A DNA stretch of 63,466 nt, counting the filler, from Chrysochromulina tobinii (Eukaryota): the NCBI GenBank assembly GCA_001275005.1. It is 4 parts of 4 records of this genome, joined end to end, with 100 filler letters (N's around TTAATTAATTAA, not from the genome) between each part and the next. Parts side by side here need not be neighbours in the genome. Positions count along the whole stretch, not along the records: positions 47,094 to 63,466 come from JWZX01000319.1; 3 more parts are not named here. One strand, 5' to 3'. The position numbers were made by a program, and so were the translations under genes. Position 1 is the stretch's first letter, and each line of letters opens with the position of its first letter. The notes beneath the pieces are model-generated. The model was not told the origin of the DNA, did no database searches, and saw nothing but the letters and a program-made list of their open reading frames with translations. Positions 11,499 to 63,466 of the stretch are shown piece by piece.

Positions 11499-11598
11499 NN
11501 NNNNNNNNNNNNNNNNNNNNNNNNNNNNNNNNNNNNNNNNNNTTAATTAATTAANNNNNNNNNNNNNNNNNNNNNNNNNNNNNNNNNNNNNNNNNNNN
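11499..11598. other. Artificial contig linker (44 N, TTAATTAATTAA, 44 N)
   Basis: Identical 100-nt spacer occurs three times in the window. Confidence 0.97.
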
Positions 11599-25710: not shown

Positions 25711-27545
25711 ATGTCAAGCCCACGATTAGCCCACCCCTCACGCGCAAAGCCTCAAGGCATGCCTGCGACGGGCGCCGACGGTGTCGCGCGGTACGGCAAT
25801 GATGAGACTCGCCCTCCCACCCGCCTTTCAGGCGGCCTGTTCAACCAGCTGTGGGCACTGCAAGGGCTCGTGATGGACGCATATGAGAGCAAACTGCCGC
25901 TCACACTCCCATCTTGGGATTCCCACCTTTTCCCAGCCTCAATGGGGCTTGAAAAGGACGCCCGATTCAAGCGGCCGTTGCAACTCCCGTTTGCCGCACT
26001 GTGGCGAAAGGACGTCTTCACGAACACCCTTCGCAAGCACGGCGTCGTCGCAGTGGCCAGCAACGACTCATGGCAGGCGGCCAACGCAGTGGCGAGCACA
26101 AGCACGGCAGCAATGAGACGATACATGAGGTACATGATTCGGCGTGCCAACGGTACAGAGAACGCCCACCCTCTCGAGGACGTCGTGTACCGCGCGCTCT
26201 TGCCAGCCCCGCACCTCGCGCGCCGCGTCGAGCGGCTACTTCGTCGGCTCCGTCTCATCTCTGCGGGCTCAACCTTTGGCTGCTTGCATGCGCGCGTCGA
26301 GCGGGACATGCAGCGCTGGTGGTATCACGTAGCCAAGGCGCGCCCTCCGACGATGCGCCAGATCCTCGATGCGATCGGCTCCGAGGCGCGCATGCAACGC
26401 TCGCGCGCCATCTACGTGTGCGTCGGCTCCGATCTCAAGCCGCGAGATCGTGAGGTGCTCGGGAATCGGACCAGTTGGGGCGCAGCTCTCTTGCGCCGGC
26501 CGACGCTGCTGGCTGAGGACGCGGAAGACGAGGCGGCGGCTCGCGCTGGCAGCTCGGAGCACTCTAAGGAGGACGATGGCCGGTACGTGCGCGTCGGCTC
26601 CTCCCAAAGGCGCGCGAGCTGCACGCAAGTGCTCACCACGGCGCCGATCCTCTCTTCCCCACAGGTTCTACTCCATCCCTGGGAGCGGTGTGGTGCATGC
26701 AAGTGCTCACCACGGCGCGTGTCCTCTCTTCCCCACAGGTACTCCATCCCTGGGAGCGGGGTGGTGCATGCAAGTGCTCACCACGGCGCCGATCCTCTCT
26801 TCCCCACAGGTTCTACTCCATCCCTGGGAGCGGTGTGGTGCATGCAAGTGCTCACCACGGCGCGTGTCCTCTCTTCCCCACAGGTACTCCATCCCTGGGA
26901 GCGGGGTGGTGCGCCGAAAGATGGGCGCGCACGACACGGCGCTCTGGTCCGAATGGCTGCGCGAGGTGCTGCGCGAGGGAGATGGCGGCCATCATCAGAC
27001 TGATGACGAGGATCATCAACGTGTAGACCCCACCACCGTGTCCACGATCGATTCGCGAGGGAGATGGCGGCCATCATCAGACTGATGACGAGGATCATCA
27101 ACGTGACCCCACCACCGTGTCCACGATCGATTCGACGAATATCTCGAGATCGAGAAACATCTCGAGATCGAGATCGAGATCGAGTGAGGAGCTCGGCCCC
27201 ATCGACGATCCGCCTCGTCACGTGCCGCTCACGTACATTGAGAAGGCGATCCTCGATTTCAGCGTCTGCCGCCATGCCGCGTGGTTTGCCGGCTGGAGCT
27301 CCTCCTCATTCTCCGCCTCGATGGCCTATCTGCGCCATCTCGATCACAACCAGGGATCGTACGCGTACTGCGCGAAGGGCTCGCCCTTCTCGCGCACGCC
27401 GCCGCAGCAGCAGCAACGGAAGCAGCAACTGCAGCATCCCCAGACGGTAGCAAGCACTGGCCACTCATCCCCGGCGGTAGTGCTGCAGCATGAGCACTCG
27501 CGGTTCGTGCGCCTGCACACGTGTAGGACGACGGGCTTGGGCTAG
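25711..27545 (+). CDS. O-fucosyltransferase-like GT-B glycosyltransferase
   Basis: GGLFNQL, GCLHARVERD, AILDFSVCRHAAWFAGWSSSSFS; intron 26583-26883; a second frame change near 26966-27080. Confidence 0.65.
26583..26883 (+). repeat. Tandem array of four intronic cassette-B units (tgcatgcaagtgctcaccacggcgc...ccccacAG)
   Basis: Units 26583-26664, 26665-26738, 26739-26809 and 26810-26883; the same cassette occurs at about 8832-8880 (-), 21962-22000 and 23693-23736. Confidence 0.9.
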
Positions 27546-27843: not shown

Positions 27844-27943
27844 NNNNNNNNNNNNNNNNNNNNNNNNNNNNNNNNNNNNNNNNNNNNTTAATTAATTAAN
27901 NNNNNNNNNNNNNNNNNNNNNNNNNNNNNNNNNNNNNNNNNNN
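27844..27943. other. Artificial contig linker
   Basis: 44 N + TTAATTAATTAA + 44 N. Confidence 0.97.
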
Positions 27944-46993: not shown

Positions 46994-47093
46994 NNNNNNN
47001 NNNNNNNNNNNNNNNNNNNNNNNNNNNNNNNNNNNNNTTAATTAATTAANNNNNNNNNNNNNNNNNNNNNNNNNNNNNNNNNNNNNNNNNNNN
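46994..47093. other. Artificial contig linker
   Basis: 44 N + TTAATTAATTAA + 44 N. Confidence 0.97.
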
Positions 47094-60256: not shown

Positions 60257-60956
60257 GGGCAGCGAGAGGGTGAGAATACACAGTCACGCTCACCGGCCTC
60301 ATCCACGAGAACACTACATCCAAGGACTCTCATTCGAAGACAAAGACGCGGGTCCTGAACGGATACTCCGCTCGGCTCGTCATATGACTTTTTTTCAATC
60401 ACTGAATTTACCCTCTATTATATATATTTTTATCGGCTTCATTCTTCCATGCCTACTATGAGGCCCAAACCCCCGAACACCCGTCCAAGAGCGTCTCCAA
60501 CAGATGCATCACTCCCGGCACTCAAGTGGCCGTGCCTCGTTGAAGATCGGTGACACATGGTGTCTGATGCACACTTCCGCCACGCGGTGCTGCTCACCCG
60601 ACCCAGACGGGAGAGCACATCTCGCACACAGCTGCTCGCTCTAAGCGGTCCGAACCCACGGCCTGTCCTATCCCACCGGCTGGTGCTGCAGAGCGCTCCC
60701 CATCATCACATTTCTGAGCTCCGCATTTCTGAGCTCCCCCGTTCCCAGCAGCAAATCCCTCCTAGCTTTCTCGCTCCCAGCACATCCCTCCATTCTCGCC
60801 GCTCACGACACCCACACCAGTCAAGCCCACATCCGTCGCAATGGGGCTGAGGCTCGCCCCCGCCTCGTTGCCGAGTCATTCGACCATGCTGTTACACACT
60901 TTGCATAAGAACATCTGTGGCTTCCGCCATGGTGTGATGCTCACAGAGCGCGCCTC

Positions 60957-63466
60957 TCAGTCTGCTTCCAGCAGACGGATGGGAGACACTACACCCTGCT
61001 CTTGCTGCAGGTCAAGCCCACTGCTCTTCGGAGTTGCGTTCATTCGGCGCAGCTTCCACGCCAGCCCGCAGAGGCCGGCCAGGAGAAGGAGACCGCCGCC
61101 AACACCTCCTGCGATACGGCCAATGTCCATGGCCTTGTCGGGCGGCAGCGAGGGCGGCGAGGGCGGCGCCTGGCAAGTTGAGACTGTGCCAAGAACGCCG
61201 ATGAGGGTCGTTGCCCAAGAGCAGACTGTGGCTCCACAGCAGCCATCGACAAAGACGTTGGGCCCCTGCGCACGGAGCGCGAGGTCACAGTGGTCACTTC
61301 GGTGCTAGGTTGGCACGAGAATCTCTTCACCACACATGAGGGCATGAGATTATGAGCATGAGCACGCACGAACGTAGCTCGATTGGAATACACTTGGGAG
61401 TTCACGATAGAAACTGTGCCTTCTTCGACATAGACACCGCCTCCCTGCAAATAACGAGCAAAATGTGAGCTCCCATGAGGGCGGTGGGAACTTTGGAAGG
61501 TCTCTGCAGCACTCACCCACTGTAGTTGACCGAAGCGCTCGCAGTTGTGCAAGCGAGAATCAAAGCAAGCGCGTCAGCAATCTTCCCATCGGGCGATGGG
61601 AACTTTTGAGTCTCTGCGGCACGTACAGAAGCCTGTAGTTGACCGGAGCGTCGGCCGCAGTTGTTTGAGCGAGAGTCGAGGCAAGCACGTCAGCAACTTG
61701 CCCATCGAGGCGATGGGAAGTTTTCAAGTAGTTTTCAAGGTCTCTGTGGCACGTACTACATTATACTGTAGTTGACCGAAGTATTCGCAGTTTAGCAAGC
61801 GTGAGTCGGGGCAAGCACGTCAGCAACTTTCGCATCGGGGCGATGGGAAAATACAGGTCTCTGCGGCACATACATAAGACTATAGTTTATCAGAGTGTCG
61901 GCCGCAGTTGTGCGAGCGAGAGTCGAGGCAAGCACGTCAGTAATTTTCCCATCGGGGCGATGGGAACCTTTGAAGGTCACTGTGACACGCACGTTCTGTA
62001 GTTGACCAAAGCGTCGTTTGCAGAAAGAGTCGAGGCATAAGCACGTCAGCAATGTTACCATCGGGGCGATGGGAAAAGTTCAGGCCTCTGCGGCACGTAC
62101 ATACTGTAGTTGACCGGAGCGTCAGCCGCAGTTGTGCGAGCGAGAGTCGAGGCAAGCGCGTTAGCATTTTTCCCATCGGGGCAATGGGAACTGTTGAACA
62201 TGAGCGCGCACTTTGGCAGCTGTGTTCCCACTGATGGTGCACGATGAGATGGACACTGTGCCACCCACGACATGGACACCGCCGCCCTGCAAACAACGAG
62301 CCAAACGTGTCTCCCATAGGGCGATGGGAAACATTGAAGGTCTCTGCGGCACGTACAACCTGTAGTTGACCGGAGCGTCGGCCGCAGTTGTGTGCAAGCG
62401 TGAGTCGGGGCAAGCACGTCAGCAACTTTCCCATCGGGGCAATGGGAACTTTTGATCATGAGCATCACGCACATTGCTCGCTGGATTCCCGTAGATCGAG
62501 GAAGACGTTATCGTGACCGTGCCGGAAGAGACGTAGATACCGCCGCCCTGCAAACAACGAGCAAAACGTGAATCTCTTGGGGTGATGCGAATTTTTTTAG
62601 CGTTGGCACGCACATTGCCAGCTGTATTGCCAGTGATGGTGCATGATGACAAGGTCACTGTGCCATTGTTGATATAAACACCGCCGCCCTGAAAGCACAA
62701 TCGCAAAACATATCAAATCCCATCGGGGCTATGGGAACCTTGCAAGGTCTCTGCAGCACGCACCACCTGTAGTTACCGAAGCGTTCGCAGTTGTGCAAGC
62801 GTGAGTCGGGGCAAGCACGTCAGCAACTTTCCCATTGGGGCATTGGGCACTTTTGGGGATGAGCGCGCACAGCGCTAGCTGTGTTCCCACTGATGGTGCA
62901 CGATGAGATGGTCACTGTGCCTCCGAAGACTGCGACACCACCGCCCTGCAAACAACAAGCCAAACGTGAGTCTCACATAAGGGAGATGGGAAACATTGAA
63001 GGTCTCTGCGGCACCTACATTCTGTAGTTGACCGAGCGTCAGTCGTAGTTGTGCAAGTGTGAGTTGAGGCAAGCATGTCAGCAATTTCCCCACCGGGGCG
63101 ATGGGAAACATTGAAGGTCTCTGCAGAACATACTTGCTGAAGTTGACCAAAGCGCCGGCCGCAGTTGTGCAAGCGAGAGTCGAGGTAAGCACGTCAGCAA
63201 GGTTCCCATCGGGGCGATGGGATAGTTGCAGGTCTCTGCGGCACGTACCCCCTGTAGTTGACCGAAGCGTTCGCAGTTGTGCAAGCAAGAGTCAAGGCAA
63301 GCACGTTAGTCATTTTCCCATTGGGGCAATGGGAACTTTTGAAGTTTCAGGCGCAGATGGCACGTACTGAATACTGTAGTTCGAGGCAGCACCCATCATA
63401 AAAGATGAGAATCGAAATGCACATGTCAACAAGGCATTTCCCCATCGGGGCGATGGGAAGTTTGCA
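60957..63466 (-). CDS. Type-I membrane beta-helix (PMP/pectin-lyase-like repeat) protein encoded by 75-nt repeat exons plus microexons; 5' part lies outside the window
   Basis: 75-nt phase-0 exons at 62871-62945, 62614-62688, 62473-62547, 62212-62286 and 61370-61444 (GGG(V/I)xVxxGTVxIxxxxIxGNxAxx). Terminal exon 61265-60957 encodes a Cys-rich cap, Pro stalk, TM helix IAGGVGGGLLLLAGLCGLAW, KLRR and a short tail. Confidence 0.8.
61445..63466 (-). repeat. Array of about 105-125-nt conserved intron modules with a cccatcg-ccc-cgatggg hairpin, flanking 12 microexons
   Basis: Repeated GTacgtgccgcagagac...ttcccatcgccccgatggg...gctgacgtgcttgcc...ggtcaactacAG on the minus strand. Confidence 0.9.

What the first reader, a model, noticed from the sequence alone, without database searches (positions are those of the whole stretch)
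60957..63466. Candidate diversifying surface-receptor gene: beta-helix rung exons interleaved with 12 variable one- to three-codon microexons
Seen in sequence (minus strand): each conserved repeat reads acceptor ...caactacAG, a short variable insert, then donor GT(a/g)cgt/GTatgt/GTgagt/GTaggt. In transcript order the inserts and exons are 63368-63373 TATTCA (YS), 63249-63251 GGG (G), 63134-63136 CAA (Q), 63019-63021 AAT (N), 75-nt exon, 62764-62766 GTG (V), two 75-nt exons, 62357-62359 GTT (V), 75-nt exon, 62101-62103 TAT (Y), 61993-61995 AAC (N), 61874-61879 TCTTAT (SY), 61757-61765 TATAATGTA (YNV), 61627-61632 GCTTCT (AS), 61517-61519 TGG (W), 75-nt exon, then a stalk/TM exon. All 12 inserts are 3, 6 or 9 nt, stop-free and different from each other, while their flanks are conserved. 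All five large exons are exactly 75 nt and phase 0, so any subset stays in frame. The microexon residues fall in the loop between N-x-A-x-x and GGG(V/I) of successive rungs and are rich in Y, S, N and V. Inference: alternative splicing and/or genomic shuffling builds variable loops codon by codon on a cell-surface beta-helix, for recognition or for evasion of viruses or grazers. Known analogies are Dscam, schistosome micro-exon genes and exon-shuffled LRRs of brown-algal ROCO genes. I do not know a description of this architecture.
Basis: partly seen in the sequence, partly recalled or inferred. Interest (0 to 1): 0.95.

Follow-up and report, generated by a model that had tools for sequence, protein, structure and literature searches.

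The report
Algal receptor with single-codon exon cassettes
In a family of predicted cell-surface receptor genes of a freshwater alga (likely Chrysochromulina), exons as short as one codon are spliced in order into the protein's variable loops, and near-identical exon cassettes are shared between genes, which likely renews the recognition surface by DNA shuffling rather than by alternative splicing.

Summary
RNA contigs join four and six consecutive microexons in genomic order, letter for letter. The gene has 18 microexons and 8 rung exons and belongs to a Chrysochromulina family of right-handed beta-helix membrane proteins; two paralogs end in a kinase or an ADP-ribosyltransferase domain. Across related loci, 205 of 205 called microexons are multiples of three and none is a stop. 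Every intron is two half-modules meeting at a shared 21-nt palindrome. The halves flanking one exon travel together (1.18 bits); the halves of one intron do not (0.05 bits). Near-identical cassettes sit in different genes, and microexon codons diverge about four times faster than held-out intron triplets (53 non-synonymous, 1 synonymous). Diversity therefore likely arises at DNA level, by homology-driven cassette exchange plus selection. No skipped isoform of this allele was seen, but contigs drop rare forms. No recombinase was found, and replicate assemblies are identical, so programmed rearrangement is unsupported. Verdict: new variant of a known kind; the ligand is untested.

The parts
63368..63373 (-). 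microexon YS (class M3 cassette)
   Evidence: in RNA joint 3653-4193 of L009
63249..63251 (-). microexon G
63134..63136 (-). microexon Q
63019..63021 (-). microexon N
   Evidence: also joined to the next rung with the upstream intron retained
62871..62945 (-). 75-nt rung exon (4th of 8)
62764..62766 (-). microexon V
   Evidence: lake-RNA joint skips 179 = 182 minus 3, read as inclusion
62614..62688 (-). 75-nt rung exon (5th)
62473..62547 (-). 75-nt rung exon (6th), joined directly to the 5th
   Evidence: GT..AG joint skipping 66 nt
62357..62359 (-). microexon V
   Evidence: no clear RNA joint seen
62212..62286 (-). 75-nt rung exon (7th)
62101..62103 (-). microexon Y
61993..61995 (-). microexon N
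61874..61879 (-). microexon SY
61757..61765 (-). microexon YNV
61627..61632 (-). microexon AS
61517..61519 (-). microexon W
61370..61444 (-). 75-nt rung exon (8th, last)
60957..61265 (-). terminal exon: helix cap, proline stalk, predicted membrane helix (about 61059-61115), short tail, stop
   Evidence: GT..AG joint skipping 104 nt in RNA; hydropathy
61946..61966 (-). one copy of the 21-nt palindrome at the centre of each intron; 14 copies within 5 mismatches in this gene and none elsewhere in the window
61445..63466 (-). array of 66-124-nt phase-0 introns, each a donor half set by the upstream exon class plus an acceptor half set by the downstream exon class

Best explanation
This is one gene of a family of predicted beta-helix cell-surface receptors in which one-to-eight-codon microexons are spliced in series into the loop between rungs, and the loops are likely diversified over generations by recombination that copies and reshuffles whole exon cassettes between and within genes, followed by selection. 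Shown: microexon inclusion in order; cassette structure (acceptor half-intron, exon, donor half-intron, bounded by a shared palindrome); near-identical cassettes in different genes; excess non-synonymous change; kinase or ADP-ribosyltransferase tails in two paralogs. Inferred: ordinary homologous or microhomology-driven exchange does the shuffling. The palindrome is the main sequence shared by all cassette classes, so unlike classes would be joined there, and every product stays phase 0 and spliceable. Also inferred: a distant branch point (about 55-58 nt before microexons against 22 nt before rungs) makes room to splice a 3-nt exon; intronless paralogs are reverse-transcribed or intron-loss copies; the stacked loops and the outward residues of the next strand bind a variable partner such as a virus, bacterium or other cell.
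For: RNA joints carry exactly the 15 and 29 letters of the four- and six-microexon runs (X11; the second joint also in X14). Part-spliced contigs L019 and L052 differ from L001 and L051 only by missing GT-AG introns and keep 3-nt exons. 205 of 205 called microexons are in frame and stop-free; flank class is linked across the exon (1.18 of 1.61 bits), not across the palindrome (0.05). The class signal switches between palindrome positions 0 and 14 in 192 introns. L009 and L053 share 279 nt with 3 mismatches, two cassettes from palindrome to palindrome; L006 and L030 share one cassette. Microexon divergence is 0.38 against 0.084 mean and 0.236 maximum for held-out intron triplets; 53 non-synonymous to 1 synonymous change in 76 neighbour pairs; rung variation peaks at positions 5, 7, 24 and 25. 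A paralog folds as a beta-helix. Kinase and ART tails follow a hydrophobic helix.
Against: No ligand or function was tested. RNA evidence is assembled contigs, which drop rare isoforms. One X13 junction fits skipping as well as another allele. Within-class linkage across the exon is weak (rho 0.12 and 0.18, p about 0.02; 0.03 and not significant in a 57-intron subset). The lack of synonymous change may partly reflect splice-site constraint on the exon's last base. Cassettes are related copies, so counts are not independent. Mosaic lake contigs could be assembly chimeras. The fold is of an intronless paralog (P0048), not of this gene's product. This gene's tail has no signalling domain.
Confidence: 0.68

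Rival explanations
1. Combinatorial alternative splicing is the main source of variation, as reported for truffle nank genes: each cell makes many loop variants from one gene by skipping microexons.
For: All exons are phase 0, so any subset stays in frame. Part-spliced forms with retained introns are common. One X13 contig joins a rung end straight to AS-W and the last rung, without Y, N, SY and YNV. There is precedent in Tuber (passages).
Against: The runs of four and six microexons are complete in X11 (the six-run joint also in X14); no skipped joint of this allele is listed in the five RNA runs from culture or the one from a lake, though both joint tables were cut. The X13 contig has 4 substitutions and a different rung end, so it is another allele or paralog. 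Splicing does not explain cassette linkage or shared tracts.
Confidence: 0.15
2. The palindrome is the target of a dedicated site-specific recombinase, and cassettes are rearranged in a programmed, integron-like way during growth or infection.
For: A conserved palindrome lies in nearly every intron (352 of 388 centres within 6 mismatches). The class switch maps to its first 13 bases. Some shared tracts end at it on both sides.
Against: No covariation: 20 compensatory pairs against about 17 expected, G-U 86 against A-C 98. Switch points in L010/L017, L032/L064 and L005/L062 lie inside like-class half-introns. No recombinase in 67 window ORFs or 61 of 100 listed flank ORFs. All cassettes are identical among 2-5 loci (mostly separate assemblies) for each of 10 genes. 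No inverted cassette among the pattern matches.
Confidence: 0.07
3. The arrays are a by-product: an introner-like or self-duplicating intron unit spread through tolerant loops of a structural adhesin, and the codons drift.
For: Introns are homologous and short. Introners are reported in a Chrysochromulina sp. (passages of bioRxiv 2022.06.06.494994). Intronless paralogs exist on long contigs, so the introns are dispensable.
Against: The unit that travels is the exon with its two flanks, not the intron. All introns are phase 0 at one loop position. The palindrome occurs nowhere else in the window. Codons change faster than introns and almost only non-synonymously, with G, Y, S, N, C, D and W enriched.
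Confidence: 0.1

Closest known systems
[quoted passage not shown] 2012; paper not held, known only from passages of PMC4986451, PMC3689799, PMC13449251)
   Same: Tens of codon-sized exons in an expanded family of candidate non-self receptors.
   Different: Haptophyte, not fungus. Extracellular beta-helix with a membrane helix, not an intracellular NLR. Microexons are interleaved with one-rung exons. Inclusion in series was seen, whereas alternative splicing is reported there. Several cassette classes are joined at a palindrome and shared between genes. I could not check whether Iotti et al. describe similar intron homology.
Brown-algal ROCO LRR and NB-ARC-TPR exon shuffling (passages of PMC3341825 and PMC11378527)
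   Same: One repeat per fixed-length exon (72 nt there, mostly 75 nt here); intra- and intergenic recombination; candidate immune receptors.
   Different: No microexons in the passages seen (0 occurrences in PMC11378527). Those proteins are cytoplasmic and have inverted spare exons; none was seen here.
Fungal NWD/het-e type NLRs with high internal repeat conservation (passages of PMC13449251, PMC4986451)
   Same: Concerted evolution by unequal crossing-over and intergenic repeat exchange, with selection on a few specificity codons: the closest match for the inferred mechanism.
   Different: There the repeats are coding sequence. Here the homology that drives exchange lies mostly in introns, and the variable codon is its own exon.
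Schistosoma micro-exon genes (passages of PMC10526429)
   Same: Runs of short exons, mostly multiples of three.
   Different: Exons are mostly 15 nt and introns reach 5 kb, and the products are secreted. Here exons are mostly 3 nt, introns 64-143 nt, in a folded scaffold.
Right-handed beta-helix / Chlamydia PMP-repeat proteins (PF13229, PF02415)
   Same: Fold and repeat; paralogs pass both Pfam cut-offs; C. tobinii Ctob_005283 is an intron-poor member.
   Different: The microexon cassette gene structure is not annotated: a genome-derived model reads through the introns (P0110).

Membership tests
Tuber nank-type codon-sized microexon arrays | many consecutive codon-sized exons that reach the mRNA | tested here: met
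   18 microexons, runs of up to six, in RNA contigs
Tuber nank-type codon-sized microexon arrays | NACHT-ankyrin NLR protein | tested here: not met
   Pfam gives Beta_helix and Chlam_PMP for paralogs and nothing for this gene's first and last exon
Tuber nank-type codon-sized microexon arrays | extensive alternative splicing of the microexons | tested here: inconclusive
   only full inclusion for this allele; one ambiguous lake joint; contigs only
Brown-algal ROCO/TPR exon shuffling | one repeat per fixed-length symmetric exon | tested here: met
   85 of 132 rung exons are 75 nt, 129 of 132 multiples of three
Brown-algal ROCO/TPR exon shuffling | intergenic exchange of exons with flanks | tested here: met
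   shared tracts between different genes
Brown-algal ROCO/TPR exon shuffling | LRR/TPR with ROC-COR or NB-ARC; inverted spare exons | tested here: not met
   pattern matches lie on one strand in each of 73 loci
Schistosoma MEG | long introns and small secreted products | tested here: not met
   introns 64-143 nt; folded beta-helix with a membrane helix
Introner elements | the whole intron is the copied unit | tested here: not met
   the halves of one intron are unlinked
Introner elements | target-site duplications and spread through unrelated genes | tested here: inconclusive
   palindrome absent from the rest of the window; no genome held; duplications not searched
Site-specific cassette systems (integron-like; features recalled) | linked recombinase and a structurally constrained hairpin site at which all exchanges occur | tested here: not met
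   an unlinked recombinase is not excluded
Dscam-type mutually exclusive exons (features recalled) | one exon chosen per cluster | tested here: not met
   all exons of a run included together
Right-handed beta-helix / PMP-repeat surface proteins | parallel beta-helix fold | tested here: met
   paralog P0048: PF13229 E 6e-23; model pLDDT mostly 85-98 over residues 121-350; top PDB and atlas hits are beta-helices
Right-handed beta-helix / PMP-repeat surface proteins | surface location and ligand binding | not testable with these tools
   only hydropathy and domain order

The most novel reading that the evidence does not exclude
A single-celled alga runs a cassette-based receptor diversification system in which a palindrome in every intron is an active recombination point. 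Antibody-CDR3-like loops are built codon by codon on a beta-helix and coupled to kinase or ADP-ribosyltransferase outputs, and the repertoire changes fast enough to track its giant viruses.
Probability: 0.15. Interest if true: 0.95.

Novelty: new variant of a known kind. Interest (0 to 1): 0.78.

Why it matters
It gives an RNA-supported, culturable case of serial one-codon exons outside fungi, and shows that the diversifying step can be DNA-level cassette exchange with intron halves as the homology. That makes two open questions testable in a microalga with known viruses: how protists diversify non-self receptors, and how a spliceosome joins six tiny exons in a row. Current annotation misses these genes' true products.

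Tried and rejected
Viral contigs: no pattern match and no protein relative. Rfam: no match in 60800-63466. Hairpin as a selected RNA structure: no covariation and no G-U excess. Linked recombinase or reverse transcriptase: none by Pfam. Matching database proteins to parsed genomic arrays to test skipping gave 1 uninformative hit. First parser mis-called many exons and served only to group loci; the hairpin-distance test missed hairpins and was used only to find tracts. One search had three mistyped upstream coordinates, corrected. DNA runs X1 and X9 gave repeat-hopping joints that say nothing on rearrangement. Small-share and same-study runs (X17-X19) were not used. Paper searches with no relevant hit: microexon+haptophyte 0; microexon+exon shuffling+receptor+unicellular+diversif 0; haptophyte+beta-helix+receptor kinase 0; four of five microexon/codon/algae terms gave 1 plant paper; none of the 40 listed of 1,074 contains microexon; C. 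tobin genome paper passages do not mention the family.

Full report
Observation. A two-sided pattern finds 6 matches against 0.00 in 100 shuffles. No whole genome is held. A strict acceptor-side pattern found 76 stretches, 73 loci, in metagenome contigs and none in viral contigs. Twelve loci from four contigs are 100% identical to the window over 4345-5466 nt and extend it upstream; one may be the window's own source. The full gene has 28 exons: a long first exon, 18 microexons, 8 rung exons and the terminal exon, with no internal stop. The start codon is uncertain; a signal-like hydrophobic stretch lies near residue 310 of the first open frame.

The microexons are spliced. RNA contigs laid on L009 give a joint from the third to the fourth rung with 15 letters between, equal to microexons YS, G, Q, N in order (X11). 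A joint from the seventh to the eighth rung has 29 letters between, equal to Y, N, SY, YNV, AS, W with a one-base shift (letters listed for X11; the same joint stands in X14). Five further joints have GT..AG ends. A lake RNA run shows the first exon, microexon G and the first rung joined, and a joint that skips 179 rather than 182 nt around V. Contigs L019 and L052 differ from L001 and L051 only by three missing introns each, and keep 3-nt exons joined to a rung or to each other; I read them as part-spliced RNA. No skipped form of this allele was listed. Limits: these are contigs, both joint tables were cut, and one X13 contig with 4 substitutions joins a different rung end directly to AS-W, which is either another allele or skipping.

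Family statistics. Of 370 segments between hairpins, 349 were kept after dropping those with a missed boundary; 12 of these stayed unclassified. Exon limits were called without using frame. All 205 microexons are multiples of three and stop-free (148 are 3 nt, the longest 24 nt); the set includes one 6-nt entry that is two already joined exons from L019. Of 132 rung exons, 129 are multiples of three; the three exceptions end in an ambiguous GTGT. Residues are mostly G 68, Y 46, S 26, N 26, C 23, D 18, A 14, W 13. The copies are related, so these counts are not independent trials.

Introns are modular. Each has a donor half, a 21-nt palindrome and an acceptor half. There are four microexon cassette classes and one rung class. 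Acceptor class predicts donor class across the exon (1.18 of 1.61 bits) but donor class does not predict the next acceptor class across the palindrome (0.05 bits). Column by column in 192 introns, the upstream signal ends at position 0 and the downstream signal starts at position 14 of the palindrome. Within a class, linkage across the exon is weak (rho 0.12 and 0.18, p about 0.02; absent in a 57-intron subset) and absent across the palindrome. Branch-like motifs lie 22 nt before rung exons but mostly 55-58 or 37-40 nt before class M1 microexons; that this eases splicing of 3-nt exons is inference.

DNA-level exchange and selection. This gene and L053 share 279 nt with 3 mismatches, exactly a rung cassette plus a microexon cassette, bounded by palindromes and flanked by different classes; one mismatch changes the microexon from YS to YL. 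L006 and L030 share one cassette in the same way. These four genes are each recovered unchanged in two or more loci (for three, for L030), so chimerism is unlikely there. Other pairs switch inside like-class half-introns (L010/L017, L032/L064, L005/L062), which points to ordinary homologous exchange; lake contigs could be chimeric. With nearest neighbours chosen by intron flanks, microexon codons differ at 113 of 297 sites (0.38) against 0.084 mean and 0.236 maximum for held-out intron triplets. Among 76 pairs, 53 changes are non-synonymous, 1 synonymous, and 31 of 54 involve two or three bases. In 82 rung exons, variation peaks at positions 5, 7, 24 and 25.

Against programmed recombination. 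The palindrome shows 20 compensatory pairs against about 17 expected, and G-U equals A-C (86, 98). Pfam finds no recombinase in 67 window ORFs or in 61 of 100 listed flank ORFs. All cassettes of 10 genes are identical across 2-5 loci each.

Protein. Homologs of the N-terminal cap number 257, and the named ones are from Chrysochromulina tobinii and C. parva, so the source is likely a freshwater Chrysochromulina. Contiguous paralogs hit PF13229 and PF02415. P0048 folds as a right-handed beta-helix, with the variable segment between the last strand of one rung and the GGG of the next. The best PDB matches are beta-helical lyases, tailspikes and adhesins at low identity and weak E-values; atlas look-alikes are PMP-like proteins. 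This gene ends in one membrane helix and a short tail. L001 continues into a protein kinase and L022 into an ADP-ribosyltransferase domain after a hydrophobic helix, a receptor layout. Intronless or intron-poor members lie on contigs of 29-112 kb, with loops such as glycine-, tyrosine- and cysteine-rich stretches of up to 14 residues; their origin by intron loss is inferred. That the loops and the neighbouring strand face form the binding groove follows from recalled beta-helix structures, not from a call.

Comparison. The nearest gene structure is the truffle nank family with tens of alternatively spliced codon-sized microexons; I saw only passages of three citing papers, and the original is not held. 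The nearest mechanism is repeat exchange with selection in fungal NLRs (passages) and brown-algal ROCO exon shuffling (passages). Schistosome MEGs, plant microexons and introners were also seen as passages and fit less well. Searches found no description of this family's microexons; subscription journals and supplements were not covered. Earlier scan notes list similar arrays in other genomes, unchecked; they suggest the layout recurs.

Verdict. Real and expressed; not a member of the nank, ROCO or MEG families, but it works like a blend of the first two. New here: serial one-codon exons on a predicted extracellular beta-helix, multi-class cassettes joined at an intron palindrome, evidence of intergenic exchange and selection, and signalling tails in paralogs. 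Interest 0.78.

Noticed in passing
L001:2406-5063 and L022:5501-7717: Paralogs whose terminal exon carries a membrane helix followed by a protein kinase (L001) or an ADP-ribosyltransferase domain (L022).
   Followed up: partly
L010:135-4403, L022:2-4075, L031:3255-7052, L065:3-4541; P0013, P0074: The long first exons or upstream frames of paralogs carry pieces of unrelated genes (acetyl-CoA carboxylase, insulinase, laminin G repeats), which suggests gene-fragment capture.
   Followed up: no
L010, L017, L022, L030, L037: Cysteine-rich microexons of 4-8 codons (CxxC-like) that could form disulfide-closed loops.
   Followed up: partly
P0144, P0158, P0163 (Ctob_005283), L068: Intronless or intron-poor family members on long contigs, some keeping only the last intron; P0048 and P0128 share their last rungs but differ upstream.
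   Followed up: partly
L009:3017-3019: One upstream microexon has a GC donor.
   Followed up: no
window 26620-26912: Four copies of a 71-74-nt unit containing a pyrimidine tract and CAG; possibly another duplicated exon-intron unit.
   Followed up: no
window 11499-11598, 27844-27943, 46994-47093: Three spacers of 44 N, 12 bases, 44 N; the window is probably several contigs joined.
   Followed up: no
window 18226-53867: Ordinary neighbours by Pfam: filamin-like, acyltransferase, GDSL lipase, DENN, CAP, glycosyl hydrolase 3, SNF2, LRR. Many 10-nt CTGATGA-type tandem repeats also occur across the window.
   Followed up: no
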